Shown in pieces: positions 1 to 31,491 of a stretch of DNA of 35,953 bases; positions within the stretch are counted from its first letter, which is position 1; each line of letters begins with the position of its first letter. The notes below the pieces were generated by a model. It saw only the letters and a program-made list of their open reading frames with translations. It did not search any database and was not told the DNA's origin. The stretch is taken from assembly GCA_018985235.1 (NCBI GenBank), contig JADGIG010000036.1:1-35953 (forward strand), in the 5' to 3' direction. Source of the stretch: Sanchytrium tribonematis. Taxonomy: Eukaryota. Made by a program: the position numbers and the translations under genes.

Positions 1-648
1 AACTATGGTGAATTTCGGGCTTCTTCGGTATTTAGTCGTGACTCTAATTATAATTCTCGGAAAAATATTGATAAACCGCAATCCAAATATAATAAGAGAG
101 CTGAATTTAAGGATATTAGCAGCGATACGACTTCAGAAAGCAATTTTGAATCATTAACCGACCTTTCCATTGAAAGGAGGCCACCAAGCTTAACCAGCGA
201 AACCGAATACGATCACCCTTATATCAAAACGAAAGTTAAAAAGAAGGAAAAGCATCATACCACACTAACAATCCCAAAGCCTTTGCGGACACCTCCCCCT
301 AAGCAGGATAGTATTTACCACGACTCACCAGCTGCCCCTCCTCTTAAGCCAAGAAAGGTAGGTGCAGCTTCCGTTGATGAAAGCGATTTTGGCCAAAATT
401 ATACAGATAGTGATGAACTTTCTGACATTTCTAGTTCAATGTCATTTTTAAACGATGAAGAATCTGGCATTTACAGTTCAAGCTCCAAAGCTGAATCTAA
501 GGGTAAGAGACCGAATATGATATCAATAGTTCTTTCTGATAGACCCGATTCTATTTTTAGTGACGATATGCCAGATATGAGAAGAAATCCACACCCTCTT
601 TCGAAACAAGTTTTTAAAAAAAACGAAGTTAGTCCTTCCTTGCATTAA
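1..648 (+). CDS. 5'-partial CDS; Ser/Asp/Pro-rich low-complexity C-terminal region of an unidentified protein
   Basis: Frame +1 is open from base 1 (AAC TAT GGT...) to TAA at 646-648. The ORF-track start at 283 is only an internal TTG. No recognisable domain. Confidence 0.75.
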   Translation, partial: NYGEFRASSVFSRDSNYNSRKNIDKPQSKYNKRAEFKDISSDTTSESNFESLTDLSIERRPPSLTSETEYDHPYIKTKVKKKEKHHTTLTIPKPLRTPPPKQDSIYHDSPAAPPLKPRKVGAASVDESDFGQNYTDSDELSDISSSMSFLNDEESGIYSSSSKAESKGKRPNMISIVLSDRPDSIFSDDMPDMRRNPHPLSKQVFKKNEVSPSLH

Positions 649-797
649 TAAATTGAAGTATGTAATTAACATTTAATTCAGTAATAATTCTTCTTTAAAC
701 TTGAAGATTCAAATTTACATTGACTTTATTAATTTGTTCGGCAACGCCAATCTTAAAGACTATAAACTAATATACTATCTGAAACATAATCTAACTT

Positions 798-2456
798 ATG
801 CTTTATTATATTGCTGTAGATTCTCCCAAGCGCAATACTAGAAATGAAGAGATATCCAAGAAGCCGGTCGAATGGAGGATATTGGAAAATTCAGAGGAAC
901 TTGAGCAGACTTTTCAGGACTATGCGAAGGACAGGTCAAGTAATACCAAAGTCATAATAGAAGATCAGCTGTTTTACGCGGATATTGCAAATTTCGAAAT
1001 AAGATCTATTTATTGGGAAGGACCAGTATTTGAAATGAGACGAGGACTGTGGTTTAGCGAAAATGGAAGCAAATATTTACCTTGCGAAGAAAAACTTTCT
1101 GCCCAACTTGAACAAGGATTTAAGAAATTTTTTGATCAACTGGCTGATATCAATAGCAGTGAAGAGTATAAAAAATATCCTCTTTTTGGTCCTTACTTAG
1201 GTCAATATGTGCTTTATGCTTCAAGATCGTTAGCATATATAGTGATGGATGGTATAACTTCAAAAGTAGCGCAGGCATTAGTGGGAAAATTTTCTAAACA
1301 AGAAGTTTGGGGGACCCGATATTTAAGGGATATAGAAAATATTCCCAAAGAAAAAAAACCTGCGTCAAGTCGTAAAATGTCCGCCAAAGGAGCTCCAAAA
1401 ATTAATGTGAGAAAAGGAAAAACCCCTGATCATTTAATTTTTGTTGTACATGGAATTGGGCAAAAACTGTTCACTAGAGACGGAATTTACACTTTTGCTT
1501 CAGATGTTTCTGATTTAAGAGAGAAGATGGATATCACTATGACAGATTTAAATGTAGTAGACCGTTACATGATGTTGCCCATTCAATGGCGAGAAATAGT
1601 GGAGTTCGGCGTAAACCCTGAGCCTATTTTAAATACGAAAGAAAAGATGTCAGATATAGGTCTGAGTAGTTCCATCGACTGCGAAGGTGTATTACAAATG
1701 AAATCCAACGAGACTTGTTTGCCAAGCATTGATGAAATTATTATTCCTACGAATCCTTACCGAAATATTATCAAGGATGTTTGCTTAGATATATTACTTT
1801 ATATGACAGATAAGCACCGGATCTCTATGCTCCAAACTGTTGCAGAGGAGCTGAATAGAGTTCATAACCTTTTTTTGAAAAATTTTCCTGATTTTAAAGG
1901 CAGTATATCTATGATAGGACATTCTTTAGGGACTCTGATTTTATTTGATCTGCTAAGTATGGAAAAAGAGGAATTTTTGAAGTTCGAAATACCGCCATTA
2001 GTATTTTGTCCGTTGACCTTATTTTTTCTGGGGAGTCCTGTATCAATGATTCGTCTTTTAAACGGCGAAATCATCAGGCCTATTCATACTGAAGATAAGA
2101 AAGAGGGCGTAAAAAGGCTTCGGATCAAATATTTATACAATATTTATCATATGTTTGATCCTATAGCTCACAGAATGGAGCCTATTATCAGCCGAAAATT
2201 TCCAAAAGAACCTGTTCAGGTCTTTAAACAGATCATAATACAAGAGGAGGATGCATTCTTAGCCGAGTTTAATCCATTGAGGAAGAGAGTAGACTTTGTT
2301 CTACAAAGTGGTTATCTCGAGTCAGCGTATCAGTATTTGAGCGCAATATCTCAGCATAGTAATTATTGGACAAATTCTGAAATTACTTCATTTCTAGCCA
2401 GAGAACTAGTGGAAATCCATAAGTTTGAGAATGAATTGCCGATAAATAAAGTTTAA
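798..2456 (+). CDS. DDHD-domain intracellular phospholipase A1 (Ddl1/DDHD1/SEC23IP family)
   Basis: 552-aa ORF with LIFVVHGIGQ, lipase motif GHSLG, and DDHD-domain motifs FFLGSP, NIYHMFDPIAHRMEP, RVDFVLQ and SQHSNYW; N-terminal SIYWEGPVFEMRRGLWF segment. Confidence 0.92.
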   Translation: MLYYIAVDSPKRNTRNEEISKKPVEWRILENSEELEQTFQDYAKDRSSNTKVIIEDQLFYADIANFEIRSIYWEGPVFEMRRGLWFSENGSKYLPCEEKLSAQLEQGFKKFFDQLADINSSEEYKKYPLFGPYLGQYVLYASRSLAYIVMDGITSKVAQALVGKFSKQEVWGTRYLRDIENIPKEKKPASSRKMSAKGAPKINVRKGKTPDHLIFVVHGIGQKLFTRDGIYTFASDVSDLREKMDITMTDLNVVDRYMMLPIQWREIVEFGVNPEPILNTKEKMSDIGLSSSIDCEGVLQMKSNETCLPSIDEIIIPTNPYRNIIKDVCLDILLYMTDKHRISMLQTVAEELNRVHNLFLKNFPDFKGSISMIGHSLGTLILFDLLSMEKEEFLKFEIPPLVFCPLTLFFLGSPVSMIRLLNGEIIRPIHTEDKKEGVKRLRIKYLYNIYHMFDPIAHRMEPIISRKFPKEPVQVFKQIIIQEEDAFLAEFNPLRKRVDFVLQSGYLESAYQYLSAISQHSNYWTNSEITSFLARELVEIHKFENELPINKV

Positions 2457-2903: not shown

Positions 2904-3437
2904 TTATTGAATTAATAAGAAAAGCAGATATGCGCTCCAAACTAAAGAGAAAGAGGAACTTCTTACACTGCCATCACCACCACTTCCTCCTGGGGTGAAA
3001 AAAGTTATAGGCTTAGAAGAAGAATCTTGAAAAGCTCCTATACAATTTCCAACATTTGACGTTGCTGTGTTGTTATCATGAAGAATTAGATAGTATCCAC
3101 CTGAATTTTGTAAAGTCACAGCTTCACCTGTAACAGCATCTTTGAAGTCAGGACTAGGTTTCCATTTGTATGATGTTGCACTTCCAACCACGGCTATTGT
3201 CTTCTGATTTTTTGGATTACGGTCATTCATCTGAAGCTTGATTGCAACATTTCCAGTGTTCTGGTCACTTGCAAATTCCCATTTTAACTCATATTCGTCA
3301 CCAAATCCAATTAATTCTGATTTATCAGAGCTGGTAGGATCAGGTGCAATCCAAGTTACTAATTGATCACCAGCATCCCTGTTGCACACAAATTGAGTGC
3401 TGTTATCAGCTGCCAATATTGTGAAACTAAAAATCAT
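2904..3437 (-). CDS. Small secreted, probably GPI-anchored cell-surface protein (possible Kre9/Knh1-N-like Ig fold)
   Basis: Short hydrophobic N-terminus; beta-rich core (YELKWEF, VAIKLQM, SYKWKP, GGYYLILHD); Gly/Ser linker followed by a hydrophobic C-terminal tail (FSLVWSAYLLFLLIQ) typical of GPI signals. Confidence 0.65.
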   Translation of the reverse strand: MIFSFTILAADNSTQFVCNRDAGDQLVTWIAPDPTSSDKSELIGFGDEYELKWEFASDQNTGNVAIKLQMNDRNPKNQKTIAVVGSATSYKWKPSPDFKDAVTGEAVTLQNSGGYYLILHDNNTATSNVGNCIGAFQDSSSKPITFFTPGGSGGDGSVRSSSFSLVWSAYLLFLLIQ

Positions 3438-3608
3438 TTGTTAAAGTTATGTGTTTTCGATTAATATCACAAGAAATTAATTAATCACCAATCAAGTCAT
3501 TTTCGTATCAGTCGGATTTGGTATTGATTTGATTGCAATAAATTGGGATTGGGTTTATTACATAGCGAATTGATTTCAAATAAATAAGGAGTAGTTTGAG
3601 TTTCATTT

Positions 3609-4230
3609 ATGTCTAGCGAATACGATTTACTTTTCAAATTGCTTCTTATTGGAGACTCTGGTGTCGGTAAGTCTTGCTTGTTACTCAGATTTGCTGATGA
3701 CACTTACACCGACTCTTATATTAGCACCATTGGCGTGGATTTTAAAATTCGAACTATTTCACTTGAAGGTAAAACAATTAAACTGCAAATATGGGACACA
3801 GCAGGGCAGGAGCGCTTCAGAACAATAACTTCCTCGTACTACAGGGGTGCACATGGTATCATGATCGTTTACGATGTAACTGATATGGATTCTTTCAATA
3901 ACATTAAAGTTTGGCTTCAAGAAATTGACAAGTATGCAAATGAACAAGTCATCAAAGTTTTAATCGGAAACAAAAGTGACTTGAGCAATAAGGTGGTGAC
4001 TTCTGACATGGCACAGCAATTGGCAAAAGATTATAACATGGAATGGATGGAAACGAGCGCAAAAGACAGCAACAATGTTGAAGACTCTTTTTTGCTTATG
4101 GCTAAACAAATCAAAGATAAGATGGCCAATCAGCAACAAACTGTAAATATTGTTAACTTAGGACGATAAGAAGAAAACTATTGACATGAATGCTACCCAA
4201 GTTCAACCAAACGGAGGTGGATGCTGCTAA
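3609..4230 (+). CDS. YPT1: Rab1/Ypt1 GTPase, join(3609..4142,4162..4230), 200 aa
   Basis: [48 protein letters not shown] and ETSAK motifs. Removing the 19-nt intron restores the tail [22 protein letters not shown] with the CC prenylation motif. Confidence 0.96.
4143..4161 (+). other. 19-nt spliceosomal intron GTAAATATTGTTAACTTAG (phase 0)
   Basis: GT...AG ends and a TTAAC branch-like motif. Removal is needed to reach the Rab1 GGGCC* terminus. Confidence 0.92.
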
Positions 4231-4250
4231 TAAACTAGTTTACTCGGTAC

Positions 4251-4697
4251 TTATTGAAACATTCTTCCGACAGCTGCTCTCGCATACGGGATATAACTCA
4301 AAGAGTACCAGACCAACGCTAAATACTGAAGTATTATGCAAACAAATACTAGAGCCTTATTCTGTAATACTATTGCCACAACTAGTGTCAAAACCATCAT
4401 TACAATGTAAAGTATAGTCGCTAAGATTCTGCTAGAGGCGAACATACTGCCAAGTTGCCTCTTAAATCCAATGATAAATCCTGTGGAAAATAAACTTATA
4501 ACATTGCCAACGGTATATAGAATTGCAAACAAGCCGACTAGTCCAATTGATAAAAACAAAGTACTTAAAAATGAGATCACGAAACCAGTGATAATGCAAC
4601 CTATAAACGCATACATTCTCTGAGTGTAAGTAAGGCTAAACATTGAGCCTAAATTATCCCTGTCATTAGAACCAACTAGATTTGATAAACTATCCAT
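4251..4697 (-). CDS. SFT2: Got1/Sft2-family vesicle transport protein (SFT2D-like)
   Basis: 148 aa with four TM segments; motifs LTYTQRMYAF, FAILYTVGNVISLFSTGFIIG, MFASSR and QYLALVWYSLSYIPYAR. Confidence 0.92.
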   Translation of the reverse strand: MDSLSNLVGSNDRDNLGSMFSLTYTQRMYAFIGCIITGFVISFLSTLFLSIGLVGLFAILYTVGNVISLFSTGFIIGFKRQLGSMFASSRILATILYIVMMVLTLVVAIVLQNKALVFVCIILQYLALVWYSLSYIPYARAAVGRMFQ

Positions 4698-4736
4698 ATT
4701 CCTTCCTAAATTCGTGTTTCAAATATGTAAAAAAAT

Positions 4737-5210
4737 TTATTCAATGACCTCAAAAATCGGTTCAGTAGATGGTTTTCGACTACTTGGATTCATTTTTCTG
4801 TCTTTCGGCAAATCCAATTTTGGCTTTTCTGGAGCAATAGGAATTGGTAACAGTACCTTAGGGGATTTTAAAATCATTTCCACTTGTTCTCTCAAATCCT
4901 TGGTTTCTTCCTCTGTGAAATAGGCTCCAGGGTTAAAAGAGTTAGACCGGCTGTTACTCAACTCACCTCTTTCCCTTTGCATCTTCCTGTGAGACTCTTC
5001 CGTATTTGGTTCATTGGATTTACCGATTGACCTTTCCCTCGGAACTAATTTCCAAAAATGATTCATTAAAATCCCAATATTTCCGACCACCAAAAAACCA
5101 GTCAGGATTCCAAAATAAATCCATTTTTTACTTTCCACAGAGTCTGTAGTAAAAATGGTGGCTAACGCAATAGCATATAGGAACAAGGATAAAAATATTT
5201 TTAGCCACAT
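4737..5210 (-). CDS. Hypothetical protein with two N-terminal TM segments and a charged, Pro-rich tail
   Basis: ORF fills the gap between SFT2 and GDB1. First ATG at 5210 (MWLKIFLSL...); the track start at 5267 is a TTG. Confidence 0.65.
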   Translation of the reverse strand: MWLKIFLSLFLYAIALATIFTTDSVESKKWIYFGILTGFLVVGNIGILMNHFWKLVPRERSIGKSNEPNTEESHRKMQRERGELSNSRSNSFNPGAYFTEEETKDLREQVEMILKSPKVLLPIPIAPEKPKLDLPKDRKMNPSSRKPSTEPIFEVIE

Positions 5211-5353
5211 TCTGAAAGTGAATGCTAATTTAAGAAAAACATATATATATGATGTGGACAATGACAATTAAACATTACCGACTTTATGCTATGGACATAA
5301 ACTGCTTCTCAAAAATAATTCATTAAATTACTTTTTTCTAGGGTCAAACAAGA

Positions 5354-8300
5354 ATGATGATTTTAGATTTGCAAAACGGCCCAGATTTTGTTCGCCTACT
5401 TACCGACAAATTGACTCTTTTTTCATTTGTAACCGGGAAGCTTTTATTTGATAATGAAAATTATAATATTAGTGTGGATCAGCCGTTAAAGCTTGGGATC
5501 CCGGTTGGTTATCACCGAATTATCTTCTCGAGAAAAAACACTACTAAAGAGATCACCATATTGAGATTATCTTTCCATCCCAGCAAATTGAGAATTCAGA
5601 CAATTATGCCAAAATGGTGTTCAGATTTATCCCAGATTGTCAAAGTTGCCAGAGATTCTCATTTCAATGCAATTCATTTTACTCCACCACAGTTGAGAGG
5701 TGGATCCAACTCTCCTTATAGTATAAAGGACCATCTTGATTGGCATGAGTATAAGGAGCGAGATTTTGTAGGTCTAACTAAAGACTTGCGATATTTCGTT
5801 GATGTGGTATGGAATCACTGTTCCAACGATGCACTTTGGATACGTAAGCATCCCGAGTGTGGCTACAACCTTAAAAATACTCCACATCTCATTCTTGCTT
5901 TCATTGTAGATGAGTGCATTTTACAACTAAGTGAAGAGATTGACGGCCCTTGTGATAATGTGGAGCACATTGTCTACTTACTTAGAGTCAAATTAGAAAA
6001 CAGTGATTTGTTTAAATATCTCGTTGTACACGATACCTCATCTGAAGTTGATAATAAAGCCGTACCCGAAATGAACCGTGAAGATCTCAAGCGTTTTGTG
6101 TTAGACCGCGGGCTAATTCGAAATTACAAGAAAAATGGCACTAAGCTCACCAAGTCGGTTGTTGATTATTTGTCGAAAATGTCTTGGGATCTTGAACATT
6201 TTATTAAAGATGTGAATGACGCTATACTTTTAAACATGAAAGGCGATATTGACGAAATTTGTCAAAATATAACCAATACGCTAAAATATGAGCGACTTGA
6301 TGAAAACGGTCCATTGAAGGGTAACATATCGATAAAATCACCTATTTCTGATACCTATTTTTCTAGATTTGGAAATTCAGAAGAGACAATTATGATAAAT
6401 AATGGTTGGGTCTGGGGAGCAAACCCTCAAGAAAATTTTGTGAAAGACGGATACTACAAAAGAAAAGTGGTAATATGGGGTGATTGTGTCAAATTAAATT
6501 ATGGTGATAAATATGAAGATTGTCCTTACTTATACGATTACATGAGAACTTATACAAACTCCATGGCAAAAATCTTTGATGGATTTCGGATTGACAATTG
6601 CCATTCGACCCCACTGCATGTTGCTAAATATCTATTAACGGAGGCTCGAAAAATTAATCCCGGTCTTTATATTTTTGCTGAATTGTTTACAGGAAATGAA
6701 GATATGGATAAACACTACGTCAGGGAACTAGGGCTTCATTCTTTGATTAGAGAAGCAATGCAATGTTGGGACGCAAATGAATTAGGGAGACTTGTGTGGA
6801 AATATAGTGGGGATCCTCTAGGCAGTTTACATCCTGCTGGCATAACCCACCAGCAATATGACCTGACTCAAAATTTACCAAATGATTGCACAATCTTCAG
6901 CGATCCTCACGCTATATTTTTTGATATGACTCATGACAATGAAACTGTTTCTCAAAAAAAACAAGTGGCAGCATCAGTTGAACAGGCTGCTTTAGTAGCA
7001 TTCAGTTGTGCTGCAATAGGTAGCTCAAGAACTTATGATGAGATTTTGCTGAAGCATGCTAATATCGTTAATGAAAAGCGAATCTATCTTCCAAAACCAT
7101 TTGAAGATCTACAGAGCATTGGGATGTTTAAATTGAGAAGAATATTAAATCAACTTCACGAAACATTAGTAGACTACCCAGAAATATATGTTCATCAAGA
7201 GCACGACATCATACAAGTCAGTAGACTAAACCCTAAAACCCTTAAAGGTTTTCTTCTTGTATGTCGTACAGCATACAAAAATACCCCCTCTTTATCACCA
7301 TGTCTAGATATTCCTATTGAAAAAGGCAGAGTGCTGCCTCGGTATTACTCATATTTATCAGAACTAAATCCTAATTATGACAAGAAATACTTATACGACA
7401 TCGACACCAATTTGACTTTGCAATCTTGGGAGTCAGATATAGAGTCTTCTCTTGAAGAATACCTGAAAAATATTCAGTTGGAGTATCCAGCTTTTCACAT
7501 TTCACACGAGCCGTATCAATTTTCTAAAATACATTTGCATAATAACTTTGCCCCTGGTAGTATTATCATTTTTGAGACTGTCGCCAACGAATGTTTATCC
7601 CCTACTGTTAGACAGCTGGGATTTTTGAATTACCCGATTTCAGAATTGATCATCTCAATATCAGAGCAAAGAGATGTTTTACATGGTATCAGTTTATCGG
7701 AATGCTTAAAAGATATTTCTACACAAGATTTAAATATATTGTTGTATAGAACACACGAGGAAGAACGGGAATACAATGTGGAACCCTACTTGATACCTAA
7801 TTATGGATATTTCAAATATTGTGGACTTCAAGGGATTGTAAGTGCCTTGGAAGAAATTGTTAAATATAATAATTTAGGGCATCCAATTTATCAAAATCTT
7901 ATGCAGGGCAGCTGGTTGATGGACTATGTCATCTATAGAATCCAACAATACCCACATCAGTTACATAGTCTGATTGAATGGTTACGAACTAGATTTTCAT
8001 GTATAAATTTATTACCAAGATACGTAATTCCTCGGTATTTTACCGCCATTATCTTCAGCGTGTATGAAAAAGCAATTGAGTTGTTTGTAGCAAAGTGTCC
8101 CAAATGGGTTGCCAATAGCAATATAATCATTCAAAAATTGACTTTGACAAGTATACAGATGATAGGTCCAACGAAAAGTACTGGTTTGACAAAAACATTA
8201 AATGGAATGGCAGCTGGTCTACCACATTTTGCAGTTCAATATATGAGGTGTTGGGGAAGAGATGTATTCATTAGTTTAAACGGTCTATATACGATTTTGG

Positions 8301-9593
8301 GACAGCAGCAGATTGCAAAGGAGCATATTATTGCATTTGGCAGTACTTTGAAACATGGCTTAATTCCCAACCTTTTAGATAAACAGATAATGCCAAGGTA
8401 CAATTGTAGAGATGCGGTCTGGTTTTGGCTTTACAGTATTCAAAAATATTGTGAAACTTACGATGAATCCATTTTGAAAGAAGAGATTTTGCGAAGATTT
8501 GAAACTGATGAATTTATTCCCATAGAAAATGGGTTTAAACTAAAATATTCACTTATAGACTTAATTATAGAGGCTCTTACGAAACATTTAAACGGCATCG
8601 AGTTTAAGGAATATAACGCAGGCAAAGAGCTTGATCAATGTATGCAAAATTCTGGTTTTCACATCAAAATTGCTACAGACTTAAATGGGCAATTAAGGTC
8701 ATACATTGCTTATCAAAAAAATTATGAAGGAAATCCGACTTCAAATGCTCAAGAAACGGGTTTCATTTATGGAGGTAATAAATGGAATTGCGGAACCTGG
8801 ATGGATAAAATGGGGAGCTTTGATAAAAACTATGGAAAGCCTGCTACTCCTAGAGATGGCGCAGCTATTGAAATTCAAGCATTATTATACAGATCATTGG
8901 TCTGGCTTGGTTCTTTATTTAAAAAGGGCGTCATTAAGCAAAGTGGTGTTTACTTTGGCGAAAAACTTGTCGAATTTGAAAATTGGTCTCAAATCATCAT
9001 GTCTAATTTTGAGAGTATGTTTTATGTACCGTTGGATACAGCCAATCCTCTTGTAAAGCAAAGAGGCTATTACAAAGACACCGTCGGAAGTAGCTCGCCC
9101 CAGAGTGATTATGATGTGAGGCCTAATGTATTTATTGCGATGGTAGTTGCACCAGAGTTATTCAATATGAAGCACTACGCCATTGCCTTGGAGACTGGTA
9201 AATGTTTAATAGGTCCTTTAGGAATGAAAACATTATCAAATCAAGATCCAAAATACAGAGGTTTTTATGACAATAATAATACTTCTGACGTTTCAACTGG
9301 AAAAGGCTGGAATTATCACCAAGGTAATGCCAACTAATGTAGGACCGGAATGGGTTTGGGTGAAAGGTTATTACGAAATGGCTAAATTTCAATTACAAGC
9401 TATGCTTCGTCAGGATATTGAAATAGACTTACAAATTTATAACAATGAACTTGCTAAAAACGAATATAGAGGATTACCCGAATTAACAAACGAAGACGGA
9501 AGCTACTGCTATGATAGCTGCTCCACCCAGGCTTGGAGCGGTGCTACATTATTAGAATTTTTTCACAAGAAATATAAACTTGAAAACAAATAA
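5354..9593 (+). CDS. GDB1: Glycogen debranching enzyme, join(5354..9323,9343..9593), 1406 aa
   Basis: IHFTPPQLRGGSNSPYSI, DVVWNH, GFRIDNCHSTPLHVA, AELFTG, DMTHDNE, AAGLPHF, RCWGRD and GTWMDKMG motifs. After splicing it reads NYHQGPEWVW...GLPELTN...QAWS. Confidence 0.96.
9324..9342 (+). other. 19-nt spliceosomal intron GTAATGCCAACTAATGTAG (phase 1)
   Basis: Removal exactly restores the conserved debranching-enzyme motif NYHQG-PEW (CAA G|GA CCG GAA TGG). CTAAT branch motif. Confidence 0.95.
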
Positions 9594-9619
9594 ATTTGTT
9601 TCGAAATTGAAAGCTTGAA

Positions 9620-12600
9620 ATGATTGGACACTTTATCAAATCTACAGTTTTTGAAGTCTTCTTCTTGTTGGCTAAAGATAATGAAATAATTGACAAGCTG
9701 GTAGCAATTGGCCACCTGACAGATGTAGTGCAAAACTTGGCATATATTTTTTATTACACAATTCCATGGGGGAATCCTGTTTTCCAAAATATATGCATGT
9801 ATTTGAATTTGAATTTTAAAAACAATGTTGTTTTTGCAATTTCACTGTTATTCATCTTGTTATTCATTTTCAATTTCTCATATTTATGTTGGCAGGTTCA
9901 ATCAAATGGCAGTATACACACCACAAAGATCTTAGCCGTCACGAGGTATCAGTATGGTTTGCTTAGTACTTTACTGTTCTTTCCAACTTTAGAACAACTG
10001 TTAAATAACATAGAATTTGATACAGGCTTGGCATTGTTTATTGCTTTGGTATGTATTATGGTCTTAATTGTCTACTGCATTATTGTTTGCTTAGGGGCAT
10101 TCTTACTATTTTCTCCAACGCCGAATGTGAGATCTCATACAGGTAGAAATAGCCAGAGAATCGATTTATTTGAAATTTTGTTCAAAGTGTTCACTGCAAT
10201 CGGATTTGGATTTTTTGATCCTAAAATAGGATGTTTTGTTCTGCTCCTTGGTTGGACCATCTTGTATACATCCAGTTTCATCGCTCCTGCCTTTTATAAT
10301 TTCTCTAGCAATATTATTAGAAGTGGTTTTTTTCTTGGGCTTTTGATTTCTTCTTTGAGTTCAGTAGCAGTTACTTTTAATCCAAGTCGAAGGTACTATT
10401 CATGTTATTTAATGATTGTTGGATTTATTTTGAGTTCATTAGTTGGAATGATTATCTATTATTTTTACATAAAATCTAGAAAACTACCTCCTGGAATTTT
10501 TTTCTACGCGCTGAAATGCATTGAATCACGAGGGTCAAGTTCAAGTATTAAATATCGAAGTATGCTTCGAAATATAACTGATGAATGGATTAGTACCATG
10601 TGGAGCCCATTGGAAGTTGTGAATGTAATTCAGATACTATGTAATATCGTTTACTCTAAAAATAAGGAAAGTTTTATACACTCCTTGGTCATGAATCAAG
10701 AGGAAGATGAAAATGAAAAAGAGAATGAAGTTTTAGAGGCAGATGTAGTAGAAAAACGAGAGGGGCGAAAAGATGAGAAACTGCTTTACAAAATATCAAT
10801 TAACTTCAATGAGATCGCAAGACTAGTTTGTTTACAAGTGTATGAATCTGGGAAAAACAGATTCGAGACCTCCACATGGATTTCTGCACAATATCTTATG
10901 TTTCTGGAATTTTCAAACGATATATTTCCCAACTTAAAAAACTTGAGGAGTTTGAAATTTCATGCAGAAGAATTATTGAATCGAACGTTTTTAGAGGAAA
11001 AATCAATTGATGTTCATTATGTATTGTTCTCGTTTTACAAAATGAAGGTATTTGAAAAAGCAAGAACTAAAAAAGGATATTTGAAAAAGGTTGTTGATAT
11101 TGTTGCTTTTCAACACGACAAAGATAAATTTATTGAAAATCTTCATCTTGTGATTAATTCTGGAAAACAATTGGTATCCCTTCTTGAAAAAAACCTTTTA
11201 ACATTTGATTTGTTCGTATCTATTTCTTCTGATTTCCAAATGCATTGGAACCTCGCGAAAGAATATTTGAAAAAAGGCCTTAATCGAGAACCGATGTCAG
11301 GGGAGCTTTTGCTCCTGTTCAAAGAGTCAACTTTTATTTTTGATAAAAACAAGGATTTAGGATTTTATCTAAATTCAGTTATGAATGCAAATGCTAGGGC
11401 AAGCGAAGAAAAATTATTGGGAAGTCTAGAAGACAACGAAATAATGATAGAGAAACATAAAAAATCATTATTTCAGACTCGAAATCACCTACCCATGCAC
11501 TTGGCAAGAGTTTATAAATTTTCGGAAGTATTTTTCAGAACACAATTTATTCTAGCATTGTTATTGTACGTATCATTCTTCTGCTTAGTATTGTTCTATT
11601 TGAAAGATCAAGACTTATTTCTTATCAAAGAAAACTATAAAGTTCTGACATACGGAATTAGTTGCCAATCATTTTTTTATAACAAATTTTCTTTTCAATA
11701 TCTTCAGAACAGTTCTTTTTTTCAGGCTTGCGGTGATGACGTTATGTATATGAAGGCTGAATGGAAAGAAATATTGACCTCAGACTATCTCAAGCAATTA
11801 AAACCCAGTCCATTCGAACTAAATGTGACCAACTTTGATAATGATTTGGAGTATACATCATTTGGTATTCAAAATGGCGATTTTCAATGGAATGCGAACA
11901 ATTTTCTAAAAGACACCTCACAGGATATCAATATCAATCAAAATATGGCATTTATTAATCAGAACTATCTAGAGTTTTTTAAATCTATTCACGAGACAAG
12001 TGAATCTAAGTTTGACGCATTACTGGCCAAATTTTTGGTTTATTTTGGCGCTTTCTACTTTTTATTAATTGTCTCTCTATTTCCCATGAGTTACTATCTC
12101 TACAATTCTATTAAGCTGGATATGTATTTGAGATTTATGTAGGAAGGTAGATGAAAATTGTTTTTCGTATTCACAAGAAGCTATTAGGTTTAAATTTGAC
12201 CTTGACTATCTGTACCAAATAAGCCTAAAAACCGTTGACAAGTGGTCAAAAGCCACGTCTGAGTATGTGCAGACTTATGATATAACCCGAAATCTCAAAT
12301 TGAAACTTCTAATTCTATTAATGTTATATTTAGGATCTGCAGGAGTAGCATATTATATTCAAAATAGTGCTAGTGATTTATTAGGAAGATACTATGATGC
12401 CGCAGTTTGGATGAGAGTGAGGACATACTACGATTATGCACTTATCTCAAGTGCATCCTACTTTGTGCAAATGCAGCTTAGTAACAATAGCCAGGATATC
12501 ATCCTGAGGGCAAAAAATGCCATGATTTATAATCTCGAGGCTCATAAAAATGTAACCTCATCATTTTTTAAAGGATTGACAGTAGAGGGAGTTTCTATAT

Positions 12601-13055
12601 TGAATGGCACTTCACCTGCAGAGTTCTGGAATATGGAAGATACCAAATTGTATTTTGGCAATAATTGTGTAGAACTGACCAATTGCAACTCTCCTGTACT
12701 TGGTCATCGTGGAATAATGATGACCTCTAAATTATTAAAGTCTATCAGCAATTTGCAGTGGAGTGATGACATAGTTCTTTACCAATTGTCAATTCTTGAA
12801 TCTTCACGATATCTTGATTCCCAATTACGCTTTCTAGAAAAAATTGATATTGAATTCGAGAGTAGATACCAATTTGTAGAAGACGCGTGTGGTTTTATGA
12901 TTGGAATTTGCATTTTGATGCTACTAGTTGTTTACAAATTGTCCATGAGAACCATTAAGCAACTCGCTAGAACTCATAATCGAATAAAAATATTGAAGGA
13001 GATATGTGTCGGAACAGCGGTTGGCCAGGAATCTCTCAAGAATATTGCTGAATAA
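9620..13055 (+). CDS. Multipass membrane protein resembling the TmcB/TmcC (tiny macrocysts) family, join(9620..12123,12143..13055), 1138 aa
   Basis: About 8 N-terminal TM helices, a TPR-like helical region (VYESGKNRF...YLMFL; SIDVHYVLF; AKEYLKKGLNREPMSGELL), then further TM pairs. A 19-nt intron joins the two track ORFs in frame. The family call is by resemblance only. Confidence 0.7.
12124..12142 (+). other. 19-nt spliceosomal intron GTATTTGAGATTTATGTAG (phase 2)
   Basis: Removal gives GAT AT|G AAG GTA GAT..., which stays open into the 12267-13055 ORF. Same length and -6 A as the other introns. Confidence 0.85.
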
Positions 13056-13333
13056 ATTCATGTTCTACAAGGAACGCACTCTAAAATTAACAAATGAGAG
13101 CCTGTTTAGTTGTTTTTTTTTCATTTCAGCTAATCAAAATTTATAGAATAATTAATCGAAAAGTTTGAAAGGGTATCAACGTATTTACTTAAATAGAAGT
13201 ACATGATCATGTAGCCGGGAAGGTACTCCACCTCTTCTTTGTTTTTATGGATAAAGATCAGAGATCGAATTAAAGTGAATGCTGAGAACTTACCCACCTC
13301 TTGCTGATACAAAACTAAACTGATATTAATAGG

Positions 13334-13960
13334 ATGAGTTGTACGAGTTATAAAGTCTTTGGCAGCTCAACTCTTCCCGAGAGAGGAAATGGATTATTAG
13401 TTTGGGATCATGCAAGCGCTCATACTGGACCAGAAATTGAATTATACTTCCAGAATAAAAATATTAATGTTATTAAAGTTCCGGCAGGAACAACAGGTTA
13501 TTGTCAGTTGCAGATGTTGGTTTGATTAAAAGTTTTGAGGCAGACATTTGAAAATCAATTTTAGACTTCTATAATGAACAAGTGGATGAATTTCAAGCAG
13601 ACCCAAACAAGCTAAAAATCTTCCAAAAACCAGGAATTGTAAAATTTAGAGACTGAATTGTCTTTGAATGGGCAAAATTGACTCCTGAGATTATTGAAAA
13701 AACTTTAAAAACTTGTTATTTGACTAAAAACGTTGAGAAATTACATATGGCAAAAGTAACTGGCTTAGGTAGTTTTTTAAAATTTAGGTTCACAATTCAA
13801 TGCATCATTTAAGCGTTTTTCAGTTTCAAATGCACTTTTAAAAGGATAAACATACTCGATGACTGCAGAAGAGTTCAAAATACACAATTTGATGAAGATG
13901 TTCCTCGATTTGAAGCACAAGAAGAAACCATTGATTTAACTGGTAAAAATGAATAAATAT
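13334..13960 (+). mobile_element. pogo/Tigger-like DDE_1 transposase remnant (C-terminal half, frameshifted)
   Basis: GLLVWDHASAH...IKVPAGTTGYCQ(VADVGLIKSF in the next frame) and EWAKLTPEIIEKTLKTC; contains stops and frameshifts. Confidence 0.8.
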
Positions 13961-14119
13961 ATGAATTAAGTAATTATTTATTGAGTTGAGTATACTGGCG
14001 AAATTACTCACTCAAGTCCCCCAGGGAAGTTAAGCTGGTAAAGATTTTATATGGGTAACAGTGCATTAAAAAAGCGATTAACAAGGAAAGACTTCAAAAA
14101 GCTCTTGATAAAGTGTTTA

Positions 14120-15610
14120 CCCCCCGGAAAATTGAATAGATTTTAGTAAATACTTTTTGTAACCAAAAATGGCAGACAAAAAGCAGACACCGGTAGAGAC
14201 TAAAAGAAAAGCTTTGCACAAGCATCCCAGACCAAAAGGCGCTACTTTCTGCACCAGCTCATCTAAAGAACCCCAAAGAAATTTCCAGAAAATAGAATAC
14301 AACTCCAAAGACGATATTGGAGAAAAAATGCGCAAAATATTTTAAATTTTAAAGGGAAAAAAACGCGAAAATTGGCACCACTTGGACATAATATGAAATT
14401 TGCGAGTATCAAAGAAACTACTATTGAAAGAATCAAGTTTATGATGGATTGAAAAATGGTTATTAATTAAAAAAATGGATTGGAAAATGGATTGAAAACC
14501 AGAAATTAGAATGTGTATTAGATGATTCTTTCAAAATATCATTAAACTGGTACAAAGCAATGCTAAAAAGAAATGGATTAATCAACAGATTATCTACTTA
14601 ATCCACTAAAAAAGAAAATATGGAACTGGCAAATTCGGCTGCACAATACATTTATGATGTTAGAAAAGAATCTGCAATTACACGGAAGACAATATTTTAT
14701 TTATAGATGAAATCGTTATTTGGATGGATGTTGGGAAACCGAAGCCTGTTGCGAAAAAAGAGGCATATGTAGTTCCTTGTTTCCAATGAAAAAACAAGTG
14801 CTACATTTATGATTGCAAAAAAGAAAAATGGATCAAAAATTATACCATTTATTGTAAATGCAAAAAGTGCAGCTAAATTAGACACCATTGAGATCAAAGA
14901 AGATTGTGTTATGGAATATACTAAAAAGGGATGGGTAACTCAATCATTATTAGTCAAATATTTAAATTACATTTTAACATTTGGAAATGCATTGCTCATT
15001 TGGGATCATTGTTCAGCACATGGAGCATCTAAATCAGGAAACACTATGAGTGAATTTTTAGACAATAAGAAACCAAATGCTTATATGTTCCAAAAGGCGC
15101 AACTGGGTATTGTCAAGTAGCAATTATTAGATTTTTAAAGTGTAATATCAGAAAGTCTATCAGAGCCTTTTATACTAAACAAGTTCACAATTTATGGAAA
15201 AATTCTGAGTTGTCAAAAGTATTATATAAACCACTTATTGGTAATTTGAGAAATGGATTGTAGAGCATTGGAATCAAGTTCCACTTTCCATTATTAAAAA
15301 TGGTTTAAAAACACGTTACTACAGTGAAACTATTGGAGATTTGCACATTGGAAAAAGACCAAATGTTTGACCCAGTTATGGCTTCTTTAACTAGAGGTCC
15401 AGCATATTCTGACTCATTTGATTTTTACGATGATATTGAGGTTACTGATGAAGGATTTCCAGTTTATGACTTTGAAAATCAAACTGAAGAGTCAGAAGTG
15501 ATGGTTTGCTCATTGTTAAGTGAAGAAGAAATTTATTGATTTGATAGAACTTTTTTATTATGGGGGGATTGTATTTTTATAGTCAAAATCTTATCCCATT
15601 CTCCCGGGGG
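14120..15610 (+). mobile_element. Second, longer pogo-like DDE_1 transposon remnant with possible eroded TIRs
   Basis: FIDE-like first Asp, KGWVTQSLL, ALLIWDHCSAH and VPKGATGYCQV motifs. Imperfect inverted ends CCCCCGGAAAATTGAATAGATTTT (about 14121-14144) and AAAATCTTATCCCATTCTCCCGGGGG (15585-15610). Confidence 0.75.
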
Positions 15611-16093
15611 AATTTATTAGGAGGAAGGAATTGGATGGGTAAACACTTTATTACTTTCTGAGGTGATGTTTGTGGTTGATTGACTTCACTTGAATGATCC
15701 GCTGCTATTTAAAAGAACGATGTCTTATTAAGAATTGTGTGCAGGATGATGTAATCACATGGGATCCTGTTTGTGCTGTTGGTGACACTTCAGATGTTCG
15801 AGTGTGTGACATTGTACCGATAACTTAGTGTACGATGTCAAGTTTTAAAAAGAAATAGAGTAAGCGAAGATACTGAGTTAGAATGAGTTTAAATAATTTC
15901 TTTGAATTAAAGGACTTATAATATAGTCAATGGTGTGTCAGGAAAAAATAGAAGGAACGCTGAATGGCACAATGACCACAATGGAAGCCGAATTGGTTTA
16001 ATTCCAAACACGACAAAAAAGTCAAATGAAAAAGAAATTAGAGACCAAATACGGGTGTATCATAAACAGATTGAATAAGAACATCTTTTCAAG

Positions 16094-16114
16094 ATCGGGA
16101 ATTTCTATCGGGAA
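16094..16114 (+). repeat. Left inverted repeat of the YR element (two ATCGGGAA motifs, 13-nt period)
   Basis: ATCGGGAATTTCTATCGGGAA read directly from the sequence. Confidence 0.85.
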
Positions 16115-16139
16115 ATAAAATAAATATTTTTTGAAACAT

Positions 16140-18034
16140 ATGCCATCTCTTCAATCTTCTCCCAAGAAGGGAAATCTGGATAGTCTATTATTAACTCAAA
16201 TGAATACTCGTATGGAGAGTACAAATGAAAAATATGGAACTTGCATTAATGTATTTATTAAATTTTGTAATGAGAATGAATTCGATTATGAAACGATTTC
16301 AAATCGAACACCCGTCATTATTGCTGGCTTTCTTGAGTATGTTTCTTTTGTCAGAGCTAATAAAGTGTTGAAAGATACATCCTGTGTTTCCTATATTAAT
16401 GCAATAAAGATGTTTATCGAGATAAGTTATTTTGCGATTGGGATATGGCTCTGGAACCATCTCTGTACCTGAAGGAACAAATTAATAAAATATCAAGTTT
16501 AAAAGATGCCGAGGATCAGTCTGAAAGTGATCATTTAGATGACTTGTTAGAATCTGAGTTTGGTGCATTTGCACTGGAAATTAGGCAAATTCCATTAAAA
16601 GAAGACAGTAGAGAATTAAAAGGCGATCCATTTAGTTCAAGATTCTTAAAACGATTTTGCAGTGGAATCCAAAGAGAATTAGCTAGGTTGGATAAAAATA
16701 AAAAATCAGCCAATATTTTTACTGTAAATGATTTGGTGCAGATTGAAGAATCATGGAACTTGTCAACTGTTTGTAATGGTGAATTGCTGTATTTAAAAAC
16801 ATTTATTTTAACTGGTTTTTGGTTGTGGTTAAGATTTAACGATTTACAAAAATTACAATGGGAATCTATAAAAAGAAATTTGCTAGATGTAGAACTAGAC
16901 ACCACATTTAAATATCACAAGATTTTCCTACATGCCAGAAAACATGATGACTCTACAACAATAAGAAATTTATATAAACGAGTACATAAATCTGAATTGC
17001 CATTTTGTGTATTTAACTGTTTAAATTTACTTAAAGAATATGTATCAAAAAATAGAGAGATCAAGGATACAGATTTAGTGTTTCCTAATTATAAAATAGA
17101 GAAAAATTGTTTATTAATTAGCGATTTCACCCAACATTTGGAATCTAGATTCTTTTGTGGTACTTTAATCTAATATAGGTCGAATAAATAAATTACTAAT
17201 TGAAGTAGGAGTATCCGACGGTAATAAGTATACAACCCATGCTATGCGTCGCAGTCAATATATGGTATTTTTTGCACCAAATACACTTACTTTGGATGCA
17301 GAGGCAAACTTTGGTGGATGGGGTGAGGGTTTATCGGGGAAACGTATGTTGAGTGTGTATTTGATTAATAACTCCTTGGATAGTGATTTGGCAATTACAG
17401 ATGGTTTGAGACCAACCCCTCGTCTAATGGAACACAAATATTTTCTAAATATGACACCAATTCCAATTGCAATCAGATAAAATGCATGTTAGAAGAGTTT
17501 AAGAATGAGTTAATTAGTGCTCTTGTAGGTAAAATTGTAGTTGCCACGACATTAGATCATGAAAATACACCAAATGAAAGTAATCGGGGTGTTACAAGGG
17601 ACACTTTAGAAAATTTAAATTTAGAAGCAGGTTTGGCAGAGACTCAATGCCCTTTAATACCTAAAAGTACCTTCAAAACATGTAATGCCTGCTAATTTGC
17701 TCTTCTTTCATATTACAATCAAGGGGTTTAACGAGCAAATATTTCTCAAATACACCAAATTGGACAAATGTTTATTTCATTTTGTACCAATCGTCAATTG
17801 GGGGGATAATATGGTTGTTACTAAGACATTGAGTAATCGTATTAGAAAAAGAATGAGAATTCTTGAGTATTTCCAAACAAGAGGTGAGGATCAGTACATG
17901 GAATTAACATCGGGTATGACAGCTGCACAAATTCCATTATTAATTTCACTACCAAGAAAAATGCGGGAAGGAAATCAAGAAAGAAGTCTACTTCATCACT
18001 TGAGTTAGATTTAGTAAGTGAAGATGACAACTAA
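16140..18034 (+). pseudogene. Tyrosine recombinase gene, frameshifted, with a 19-nt intron
   Basis: KGDPFSS motif; catalytic signature LWLRFND (R), ARKH (K), YTTHAMRR (HxxR), FGGW (W) and MLSVYL (Y). Frameshifts near 16412, 17475 and further downstream. Confidence 0.85.
17160..17178 (+). other. 19-nt spliceosomal intron GTACTTTAATCTAATATAG in the tyrosine recombinase
   Basis: Removal gives TGT G|GT CGA ATA..., joining the R/K half in frame to YTTHAMRR. CTAAT branch motif with A at -6. Confidence 0.85.
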
Positions 18035-18129: not shown

Positions 18130-18984
18130 ATGGTATAAATTCACAAGGAGTTTCTGCAACATCGGGAATTTATTTAAATCTTCAATTCGCGTCGCATAGA
18201 CATATAAAATGCATCAATGGAATGCTAGTAATGATAAGAGTTGATTACAGTTTAAAGATAATTTATTTTTATTCCCGAACTTCTCCCGTATATACACATT
18301 GATGCAGCAAAGGCAGCACAAGAGAACATAATCAATTGAAGATTGATGCCACCATGTTGCTTGAAATAGGAATAAATGAGGCGATGGTAGGGCCATATCA
18401 GCACTTACCACAGCATTAGATGACCCAAATCTTGCACAAACTGTTTTCAATCTTTTTAATTACATTGATGGAACTGTAGTAGGGCGTGGTGTTAAATTTT
18501 ACAATATTTGAATAAACAGACCAAAGATACATTTTGATTTGCCTGATTTAAAATTGAATTGACCAGGATGACTTTCCAGGACTTTTTTGCAATTCAATAC
18601 CTTGATGTTTTATAAAAGTAAGGTATTGGAATTGCACTAATTTTGCGCAATATTTTAGCAATCATTGTGGCTAATTGAAAACTTGTTAAGTGTAATGCAA
18701 CATCGAATGACAAACTCGGCTCTACCATTTATCTTCTTTGCAAATGCGTTTTGGACATGATTACCCCCAAGCGCTGAGGCTAGAGGGATCTAAATAAAAG
18801 GTAACAACAGGATTATTGTATACGCAGTCCCCAACTGTGTGTTCACAATTGTCTGGCTGGTTTAACTCTGAAAAAGACTTGCACGGGAAATTCTGGCGTA
18901 GTCGCATAGACATTTACCCGGCTATTGCATCGGCCTAATTCTTTGTTTATCAGTACTATTTATCCAATGCAAACTTGTTTACTA

Positions 18985-29321: not shown

Positions 29322-30150
29322 GTGCTTTTATCTCCTTCAAATGACTCCGCGCCAATTCAAAATTTTCGCGATACAGCCAAAATCAGACCTTCACGACCGG
29401 ATATTACTCATCATGCTGTCAAATATGATCAGGAAATTCCCCATTTGCAGAAAAATTACCTCAGAATCTCTTATTTAAATATAGACGGCATTCCCGCAAA
29501 ACAAAGATCTGTTGCTCCAATGATGGATTTTTCTCAATCAGATATTATCATATATGGAGAAGCCAAAGCAGCACGTTAAAAATCATTAGACCCAGCCATT
29601 GTATTTAAGACAGAGACTGAGAATCATCAATATGGTCTTTGCGTTGCTTTGAACAGGAAATATAAAAATCAAGTGCTTTCTATAAGATATTTTTTACCTT
29701 ATCATCTCCGAATTTGGAATATTGGTAATTACATTTAAAATTAAATTGCCAAAATCTTTTATTATCGGTGACTCAAACAAGTCTATTTTAAAAGAAATTG
29801 CACCTGGTTCATATAAACTTGGGAAAGACATGCTTTCTAGCTATTCTACGGATCTCAAACAACTCAATAAAGAGCTAGATGATGAAACACTGGTCAATTC
29901 ATGAAACCCCAAACTGGACAACCCAGTAACATTATATGATCAAAAGACTTGATAAGAAAAGAACTACGTTCCAAGTGGACCAAAGATTATCCCACGCATT
30001 TCAATCAAGAGTTCGTAAATGCTCCAAATCATTTCGCATTTGTGATCTTGTATAAAATTAAAAGAAGTGGTAAACCACAAGGTGTATAAAATTAAAAGAA
30101 GTGGTAAACCACAAGGTGAAGATCTGGTCGATAAAGAGATGCTCCATGTG
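29322..30150 (+). mobile_element. LINE ORF2 remnant (APE endonuclease to start of RT)
   Basis: LRISYLNIDGI...DIIIYGEAK, FIIGDSN, and KRSGKPQGEDLVDKEMLH. Confidence 0.7.
30049..30116 (+). repeat. Perfect 2 x 34-bp tandem duplication
   Basis: TGTATAAAATTAAAAGAAGTGGTAAACCACAAGG occurs twice, head to tail. Confidence 0.95.
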
Positions 30151-31182: not shown

Positions 31183-31491
31183 ATGACCAAAACAGCTTCT
31201 GAAAACGATGAAAAACAAAACAATGATGACACAGCTTCAAAATCAAGTAGCGAAAAGCAGAAGAAGTCACAATTTCGTTGGAATTCTTTCGCAAAAGACC
31301 GATGTGTCAGTGGAGCCGCTGGAGAATATGAAGAATACGACCAAATTTACCAAGAACTTGTGGATTTATATTCAGCGTATTTAACAGATCATAATGAAAA
31401 CAAAGAAATAAAAGAAGAATAGAAAAAGAAATTAGTAGAAGATGAAAAGCATGCATTGGAATTTAGAAAAAACGCTGCTGAAATTAGATAA
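31183..31491 (+). pseudogene. Harbinger-type accessory ORF (Myb/SANT-like) remnant
   Basis: QFRW...SGAAGEYEEYDQIYQELVDLY followed by a charged coiled segment; one in-frame TAG at 31420-31422; convergent with the transposase. Confidence 0.6.

What the first reader, a model, noticed from the sequence alone, without database searches (positions are those of the whole stretch)
4143..17178. Fixed-length 19-nt spliceosomal intron system in a fungus-like nuclear genome
Seen in sequence: four independent frame breaks are each repaired by removing exactly 19 nt. They are GTAAATATTGTTAACTTAG (Rab1, 4143-4161), GTAATGCCAACTAATGTAG (GDB1, 9324-9342), GTATTTGAGATTTATGTAG (Tmc-like, 12124-12142) and GTACTTTAATCTAATATAG (recombinase, 17160-17178). 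They align without gaps to GTA-N7-YTWAY-N-TAG|G, with an invariant A at position 14 (-6), no polypyrimidine tract and all three phases used. No longer intron was found in the window. Established: typical fungal introns are tens to hundreds of nt. Introns this small are known from heterotrich ciliates (Stentor 15-16 nt, branch A also at -6) and chlorarachniophyte nucleomorphs (about 18-21 nt), and known microsporidian introns are slightly longer. Inference: the spliceosome acts as a ruler, forming a 14-nt lariat loop, and probably has reduced or modified U1/U2AF/SF3 components. This would be convergent miniaturisation in an early-diverging fungal lineage.
Basis: partly seen in the sequence, partly recalled or inferred. 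Interest (0 to 1): 0.93.

Follow-up and report, generated by a model that had tools for sequence, protein, structure and literature searches.

The report
Tiny 19–21-base introns in sanchytrid fungi
Four genes of what is likely a sanchytrid (an alga-parasitising fungus) are each interrupted by a 19-base stretch with intron ends, and relatives break at the same spots with likely 19-21-base introns, so this group likely has the shortest introns yet seen in fungi, which its published gene lists did not model.

Summary
The four 19-mers are present with GT..AG ends, A at -6 and phases 0/1/2/1. Homologues fix the 19-nt cut in GDB1 (restores NYHQGPEW, contiguous in 111 of 119), the TmcB-like gene (gap-free against 4 intronless relatives) and Rab1 (five orthologues diverge at the same codon). 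The recombinase intron lies in a decayed element and is least secure. The organism is very likely a sanchytrid: its Rab1 clusters with Amoeboradix gromovi, and Rab1-GDB1 synteny is shared. Length is narrow, not fixed: back-translation of relatives' unspliced proteins gives 19, 20, 20 and 21 nt, with A at -6 fitting each time. The constant is the 5-nt branch-to-AG tail, as in Stentor. The guess of reduced U1/U2AF/SF3 is not supported: the published A. gromovi annotation lists them. It does not list Slu7 or Prp18, which Stentor also lacks. No RNA run was listed, so splicing is inferred. Sanchytrid proteomes were predicted without an intron model, and my searches found no report of these introns. 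Tiny-intron systems are known elsewhere; this would be a new, independent fungal case. The scan's earlier notes describe 26-30-nt Rozella introns, not these.

The parts
4143..4161 (+). 19-nt intron in Rab1/Ypt1, phase 0, GT..AG, branch A at 4156 (-6)
   Evidence: five orthologues diverge right after the same V codon; P0124 decodes 8 of 8 exon-2 codons after a 20-nt intron; spliced protein ends in CC like 109 of 116 homologues
3612..4230 (+). Rab1/Ypt1 CDS (exons 3612-4142 and 4162-4230)
   Evidence: Pfam Ras; 90% cluster includes a named Amoeboradix gromovi protein
9324..9342 (+). 19-nt intron in GDB1, phase 1, with an in-frame TAA inside
   Evidence: removal restores NYHQGPEW, contiguous in 111 of 119 homologues; four other removals tested do not; relative P0002 fits only a 20-nt intron at the same site
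5354..9593 (+). Glycogen debranching enzyme GDB1 CDS (exons 5354-9323 and 9343-9593)
   Evidence: Pfam GDE_C is split between the two ORFs, profile positions 3-294 and 293-367
12124..12142 (+). 19-nt intron in a TmcB-like membrane protein gene, phase 2
   Evidence: gap-free junction against 4 intronless homologues (two named sanchytrid proteins); P0246 stops at the same codon
9620..13055 (+). TmcB-like gene CDS (exons 9620-12123 and 12143-13055), member of a sanchytrid clade of this family
17160..17178 (+). 19-nt intron-like segment in a tyrosine-recombinase (Crypton-like) element, phase 1; least secure of the four
   Evidence: Both flanks resemble tyrosine-recombinase clusters. No homologue found. 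A variant copy has A>G at -6
16119..17480 (+). Decayed tyrosine-recombinase ORFs (SAM-like N-terminus, further frame break near 16400-16540, catalytic part)
   Evidence: (Phage_int_SAM, below cut-off)

Best explanation
Four genes in this window are interrupted by 19-base GT..AG segments that are likely ordinary major-spliceosome introns shrunk to a 19-21-base minimum in what is likely a sanchytrid fungus, with the branch A predicted to sit five bases before the 3' end. Shown: the sequences, the frame repair, the homologue-defined junctions in three host genes, and the same break points in relatives. Inferred steps: (1) U1/U6 read a short GTA 5' site and U2 pairs with YTWAY directly upstream of N-YAG, with no pyrimidine tract; (2) branching at the -6 A makes a 14-16-nt lariat loop, whose lower limit is probably set by fitting the 5' site and branch helix into the active site; (3) the 3' AG is chosen by its fixed 5-nt distance from the branch A, a substrate type that in yeast does not need Slu7/Prp18, and these factors may be lost here as in Stentor; (4) deletion bias in a reduced parasite genome eroded the few remaining introns to this floor; (5) retention gives a premature stop within 9 codons in all four, so NMD (Upf1 listed in A. 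gromovi) would clear unspliced RNA. I put about 0.9 on real tiny introns, about 0.75 on a lineage-wide narrow peak, and about 0.4 on the Slu7/Prp18 step.
For: Junction fixed by homologues: GDB1, TmcB-like, Rab1. Same break in independent records: P0002 (20 nt only), P0123 (19), P0124 (20), P0244 (21), P0242 and P0246 (stop inside the intron, length unknown). Null for a fit at 19-21 nt: 5 of 1500 random tails for each gene. Spliceosome core, Dbr1 and Upf1 are listed for A. gromovi. Stentor's branch A is at position 10 of 15 and 11 of 16, a 5-nt tail, and Slu7 and Prp18 were not found there (PMC9505925 passages and table). Slu7/Prp18 are dispensable at short branch-to-3' distances, and Prp18 is proposed as a ruler for a 10-nt minimum in yeast (PMC10711555 and PMC10158995 passages).
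Against: Splicing and branch-point use are not observed directly. Only 4 introns in the window and 4 length estimates in relatives; those estimates come from back-translated proteins, not DNA, and P0123 and P0244 have only 1 and 0 exon codons to check. No genome was available, so the genome-wide length distribution is unknown. A 74-nt candidate exists in the recombinase. The -6 A is G in another recombinase copy. The absence of Slu7/Prp18 rests on a table covering 3757 of 7220 A. gromovi proteins, built from ORFs that introns can split, searched with identifiers I recalled. C. merolae lacks Slu7/Prp18 yet has long branch-to-3' distances, so the loss does not force this geometry.
Confidence: 0.82

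Rival explanations
1. Strict 19-nt ruler: the spliceosome measures total intron length, helped by reduced U1/U2AF/SF3.
For: All 4 window introns are 19 nt. One relative's Rab1 intron fits 19 nt. A species-level mode of exactly 19 is possible, as Mikrocytos has 217 of 224 introns at 16 nt.
Against: Orthologous introns fit 20, 20 and 21 nt. P0123 (19 nt) and P0002 (20 nt) share a longest contig of 34,762 nt, so probably one organism uses both lengths. U1, U2AF and SF3b subunits are listed for A. gromovi.
Confidence: 0.1
2. The introns are real but only the short tail of a broader distribution; longer introns exist elsewhere in the genome and this window is unrepresentative.
For: Small sample: 3 host-gene introns in 12.2 kb of CDS. 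Microsporidia keep a few 76-nt introns among ~25-nt ones (PMC6349667). A 74-nt candidate lies in the recombinase.
Against: All 8 measurable cases (4 in the window, 4 in relatives) fall at 19-21 nt. No longer candidate with homologue support was found in any host gene.
Confidence: 0.15
3. The breaks are assembly errors, frameshifted pseudogenes or programmed frameshifts that resemble introns by chance.
For: The recombinase is a decayed, multi-copy element with another frame break. Run X1 may be the window's own source and gives no independent check.
Against: Five Rab1 orthologues, 98-100% identical in the core, diverge at the same codon with unrelated tails. GDB1 and TmcB-like relatives break at the same codons. 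6-7 extra codons must be removed, not shifted, to match homologues.
Confidence: 0.03

Closest known systems
Heterotrich ciliate tiny introns (Stentor coeruleus, 15-16 nt; PMC9505925, passages and table seen)
   Same: GUA start, AU-rich, branch A at -6 whatever the length (5-nt tail), no pyrimidine tract, U1/U2AF/SF3 kept, Slu7 and Prp18 not found
   Different: 4-5 nt longer (lariat loop 14-16 vs 10-11 nt); clearer YTWAY branch motif; unrelated lineage; parasite with a small genome; window introns lie in the 3' part of genes (0.73-0.94 of CDS) whereas Stentor's are 5'-biased
Chlorarachniophyte nucleomorph introns (18-21 nt) and Mikrocytos mackini introns (16-17 nt) (PMC10245619, section 7 read)
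   Same: Narrow size class at the lower limit; the same size range as the nucleomorph
   Different: Nucleomorph is intron-rich (over 800 in about 300 genes) against about 0.24 per kb of CDS here; Mikrocytos keeps only 17-19 spliceosomal proteins, while A. gromovi lists many more
Microsporidian short introns (Encephalitozoon cuniculi, ~25 nt; PMC6349667, introduction and passages read)
   Same: Fungal-lineage parasites with few, very short GT-AG introns
   Different: Shorter here (19-21 nt); no 5'/ribosomal-protein bias (eL33 has no intron); essential C-termini depend on splicing; spliceosome not obviously reduced
Myxobolid and dicyemid short introns (median 22-27 nt; PMC13644364, first third and passages read)
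   Same: Parasite-associated convergent shortening with U2AF retained
   Different: There the putative branch A moves away from the AG as length grows; here A at -6 fits all 8 measurable cases

Membership tests
U2-type spliceosomal introns | GT..AG ends whose removal restores the conserved protein | tested here: met
   for three host genes; recombinase by frame and motif only
U2-type spliceosomal introns | Branch motif able to pair with U2 (YTRAY-like) near the 3' end | tested here: met
   5, 5, 3 and 4 of 7 matches to the yeast branch consensus (recalled), A at -6 in all four; YTNAY fits 4 of 4 measurable relatives
U2-type spliceosomal introns | Excised from mRNA as a lariat | not testable with these tools
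   No RNA holder listed
U2-type spliceosomal introns | Major spliceosome encoded by the organism | tested here: inconclusive
   Proteins listed for the relative A. gromovi, and U1-70K and Dbr1 for S. tribonematis; no genome for the window; no credible snRNA in the window
U12-type introns | Extended U12 5' site and branch consensus (recalled); minor-spliceosome proteins | tested here: not met
   Sequences lack the consensus; 0 rows for the recalled K1315x identifiers; U6atac hit in the window at E 0.5, below gathering score
Heterotrich-type tiny-intron system (works-like comparison) | Branch A at -6 independent of intron length | tested here: met
   By sequence only: 4 window introns plus 19, 20, 20 and 21 nt fits in relatives
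Heterotrich-type tiny-intron system (works-like comparison) | Genome-wide narrow length peak | not testable with these tools
   No genome held; 8 of 8 measurable cases are 19-21 nt
Heterotrich-type tiny-intron system (works-like comparison) | Slu7 and Prp18 absent | tested here: inconclusive
   0 rows by name, K or KOG identifier in the A. gromovi table, which covers 3757 of 7220 proteins
Introner / transposon-derived intron family | Near-identical intron copies beyond the splice signals | tested here: not met
   The 7 middle bases differ among all four, and orthologous introns diverge completely
Sanchytriomycota (organism) | Closest named relatives are sanchytrids; shared gene order; about 35% GC | tested here: met
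   Rab1 core 160 of 162 identical to A. gromovi P0242; TmcB-like clade of 7 rows with both named sanchytrids, SH-aLRT 100; A. gromovi has AGL and Rab1 on one contig; GC 0.35-0.37 over the first 10 kb vs about 35% published
Sanchytriomycota (organism) | Sister to Blastocladiomycota in a tree | tested here: inconclusive
   GDB1 tree (47 of 120 sequences): window + P0002 form a long branch outside the 32-row Zoopago/Mucoro/Dikarya clade, position unresolved

The most novel reading that the evidence does not exclude
Sanchytrids splice almost only 19-21-nt introns, the shortest in Fungi, with a spliceosome that keeps U1, U2AF and SF3b but has lost Slu7 and Prp18. Together with Stentor this gives a cross-kingdom rule: loss of the step-2 pair goes with a branch A locked five bases from the 3' end, and this permits collapse of introns to the physical minimum.
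Probability: 0.35. Interest if true: 0.8.

Novelty: new member of a known kind. Interest (0 to 1): 0.62.

Why it matters
It would add a fungal phylum to the short list of lineages that reached the lower size limit of spliceosomal introns, at a length below the ~25 nt reported for microsporidia. The spliceosome appears much less reduced than in Mikrocytos or microsporidia, which helps separate intron shrinkage from spliceosome loss. The shared -6 geometry and possible shared Slu7/Prp18 loss with Stentor make a direct test of what sets the branch-to-3' distance. In practice, sanchytrid proteomes were predicted with TransDecoder on genomic contigs. The public Rab1 proteins of the window and of A. 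gromovi lack their prenylation tail, the window's GDB1 lacks its last 80 or so residues, and A. gromovi BBP appears as two adjacent ORFs. Gene-loss and domain-loss claims for this phylum may therefore need rechecking.

Tried and rejected
No RNA holder listed for 3400-13100. Run X1 is DNA and may be the window's source; it shows no joint at the introns and is not independent. No genome held. The metagenome scan with GDB1 gave 28 loci at 29-43% identity, none a close relative. Of these, 20 contain the NYH[QN] site: 19 are uninterrupted, and L021 has a roughly 53-nt intron one base earlier, so I cannot say whether the GDB1 intron position is ancestral. Alternative GT..AG removals were rejected by alignment: GDB1 16, 34, 37, 43 nt; TmcB-like 28, 43 nt. 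For Rab1 the 10, 19', 28, 31 and 37 nt alternatives also restore the CC end and are rejected only by where orthologues diverge. The 103-nt candidate at the DDHD end was rejected: it would continue into the frame antisense to eL33. In-frame (3n) introns of 15-30 nt in 12,246 nt of CDS: one candidate, in eL33, rejected because it would remove Pfam-matched sequence. The 23-aa GDB1 insertion has no fitting GT..AG. 20-nt signal matches at 662-681 and 18288-18307 join no ORFs. Looser GTA..A..YAG counts peak at 19 nt (16 vs 6.1) but also at 27 nt (14 vs 5.3), so I do not use them. Rfam: only a chance-level U6atac hit. Recombinase homologue search: only itself. I recalled Pseudoloma neurophilia as having many 15-16-nt introns; the text seen gives it 2 introns, so I dropped that. 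Literature searches for a prior report: sanchytrid+intron (2 papers), Sanchytrium+introns (5), Amoeboradix+spliceosom (1), Sanchytriomycota+intron (4), Amoeboradix+intron (9), 'shortest introns'+fungi+chytrid (0), 'tiny introns'+spliceosom+fung (12). In the two sanchytrid papers I searched, 'intron' occurs only in a reference title; the others I saw as listings only. The main supplementary PDF and one large table of PMC8371127 could not be read, one PDF had no text, and subscription journals are not covered.
Full report
Observation. The four 19-mers stand at 4143-4161, 9324-9342, 12124-12142 and 17160-17178 exactly as written. Removing them lengthens Rab1 from 185 to 199 aa (new end GGGCC), GDB1 from 1326 to 1405, the TmcB-like protein from 840 to 1138 and the recombinase from 257 to 353; phases are 0, 1, 2, 1. 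A bare GT..A..AG 19-mer is not enriched (68 vs 57). A relaxed signal over lengths 13-40 gives 4 hits at 19 nt and at most 2 elsewhere. Because several other GT..AG pairs also repair each frame, I tested the junctions against homologues.

GDB1. 111 of 119 homologues have exactly one residue between NYH[QN] and PEW (6 had no match, 2 had 18 residues). Only the 19-nt removal, of five tested, reproduces this. Pfam GDE_C is split at the same place, profile positions 3-294 and 293-367. The nearest relative, P0002 (unnamed ENA record, 53% over the region searched), is an unspliced translation that runs off at the same codon. Of lengths 8-29 only a 20-nt GT..AG intron decodes its tail to G-P-E-W and two further fitting codons.

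Rab1. Five orthologues, 98-100% identical over 162 core residues, agree up to ANQQQ[TK]V and then differ completely: the window's own P0243, the named Amoeboradix gromovi P0242, and ENA records P0123, P0124 and P0244. Requiring GT..YTNAY-N-NAG and a matching exon, lengths 12-40 give one solution each: 19 nt (window), 19 nt (P0123, 1 exon codon checked), 20 nt (P0124, 8 codons), 21 nt (P0244, 0 codons; the stop is the acceptor). P0242 stops inside the intron and gives none. Random AT-rich tails fit 19-21 nt in 5 of 1500 trials. 109 of 116 other Rab1 homologues end in CC or CxC.

TmcB-like gene. A search of 1.84 billion representatives gave 24 hits, five of them close relatives. Four are uninterrupted, including named A. 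gromovi and Sanchytrium tribonematis proteins. They align without a gap across the 19-nt junction; the 28- and 43-nt alternatives leave gaps. The fifth, P0246, stops at the same codon.

Recombinase. Both halves resemble eukaryotic tyrosine-recombinase clusters in the ESM Atlas, which is a lead only, and the H-x-x-R motif (recalled) lies downstream of the 19-mer. No homologue was found. The element has a second frame break, and another copy in run X1 has G at the -6 position plus three more changes in 112 nt. This intron is plausible but unproven.

Organism. The Rab1 cluster, the TmcB-like clade (7 rows, SH-aLRT 100), Rab1 and GDB1 on one A. gromovi contig and GC of 0.35-0.37 place the window in Sanchytriomycota. 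The GDB1 tree (47 of 120 sequences, chosen for taxonomic spread) shows a long branch outside the terrestrial fungi but does not resolve the sister group. I did not determine the species. How many organisms the ENA records represent is unknown; the five Rab1 tails all differ.

Mechanism. What stays constant across the 8 measurable cases is the 3' end, YTNAY-N-NAG with A at -6; total length varies by 2 nt. That is the Stentor arrangement, where the branch A is at position 10 of 15 or 11 of 16 (PMC9505925, passages and table). In yeast the shortest natural branch-to-3' distance is 10 nt, Prp18 is proposed to impose it, and Slu7/Prp18 are dispensable when the distance is short (PMC10711555 and PMC10158995, passages). 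By that convention the distance here is 5. The A. gromovi eggNOG table (PMC8371127 supplementary file 4, searched by term) lists U1-70K, U1A/U2B'', Luc7, Prp40, U2AF65, U2AF35, BBP, SF3B1, SF3B2, SF3B4, PHF5A, Prp8, a Prp16/Prp22 helicase, Cwc25, Isy1, Dbr1 and Upf1. It has no row for Slu7, Prp18, Prp39, U1C, Smu1/RED or the minor-spliceosome identifiers tried. That table covers 3757 of 7220 proteins, the ORFs may be split by introns, the identifiers were recalled, and the S. tribonematis sheet is mostly cut off, so absence is only a lead. Stentor also lacks Slu7 and Prp18, but C. merolae lacks them while keeping long distances. The loss may therefore permit this geometry without forcing it. 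I conclude that a largely conventional major spliceosome likely works at its steric floor on few introns (about 0.24 per kb of CDS in this window), and that the 3' AG is likely picked by distance from the branch A. Splicing itself was not observed.

Comparison and novelty. Tiny-intron systems are known: heterotrichs 15-16 nt, Mikrocytos 16-17, nucleomorphs 18-21 (PMC10245619, section 7), myxobolids median 22 (PMC13644364, first third and passages), E. cuniculi about 25 (PMC6349667, introduction). Earlier notes of this scan describe 26-30-nt Rozella introns (not checked). The sanchytrid genome paper predicted ORFs with TransDecoder on contigs (section 18) and mentions introns only in a reference title. 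Seven searches showed no report of sanchytrid nuclear introns, within the limits of an open-access library and unread supplements. I file this as a new member of a known kind: a further independent arrival at the intron size floor, likely the shortest in Fungi so far.

Verdict. Observation confirmed; interpretation partly supported. Real tiny U2-type introns about 0.9; narrow 19-21-nt system across the lineage about 0.75; strict 19-nt ruler about 0.1; the Slu7/Prp18 step about 0.4, and the whole novel case 0.35. Interest 0.62.

Noticed in passing
window 8684-8752 (GDB1 residues 1111-1133): A 23-aa insertion absent from the closest relative P0002 and the other homologues aligned; no GT..AG removal fits it, so it is probably a real loop insertion.
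   Followed up: partly
window 4143, 9324, 12124: All three host-gene introns lie in the 3' part of the CDS (0.89, 0.94, 0.73), the opposite of the 5' bias described for microsporidia and Stentor. n is small.
   Followed up: partly
window 5354 onwards: GDB1 of the window and of P0002 lacks the N-terminal PF14699 domain that most full-length homologues list; only about 140 nt separate it from the upstream gene, so a missed exon is unlikely.
   Followed up: partly
window 9620-13055: The TmcB-like family forms a sanchytrid clade of 7 rows; the intron is present in 2 of 6 aligned members and absent in 4, implying intron gain or loss within the clade.
   Followed up: partly
window 13100-35953: Mostly transposon debris: DDE_1-like (14773-15120), tyrosine recombinase (16119-17480), DDE_Tnp_4 (31432-31978, minus), many short broken ORFs. 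The gene-dense part ends abruptly at 13055.
   Followed up: no
window 1-1500: Run X1 contigs differ from the window at 22 listed positions in the first 1.5 kb but at only 1 between 1.5 and 13.7 kb, suggesting a heterozygous or collapsed block.
   Followed up: no
window 16465-16538 (+): A 74-nt GT..AG candidate with A at -6 could bridge the upstream frame break of the recombinase; a plain frameshift in a decayed element is equally possible.
   Followed up: partly
A. gromovi annotation, PMC8371127 supplementary file 4, rows 1135-1136: BBP/SF1 appears as two adjacent ORFs on one contig, as expected if an unmodelled intron splits it.
   Followed up: no
window 30050-30115: An exact direct repeat of about 35 nt read by eye in the sequence.
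   Followed up: no
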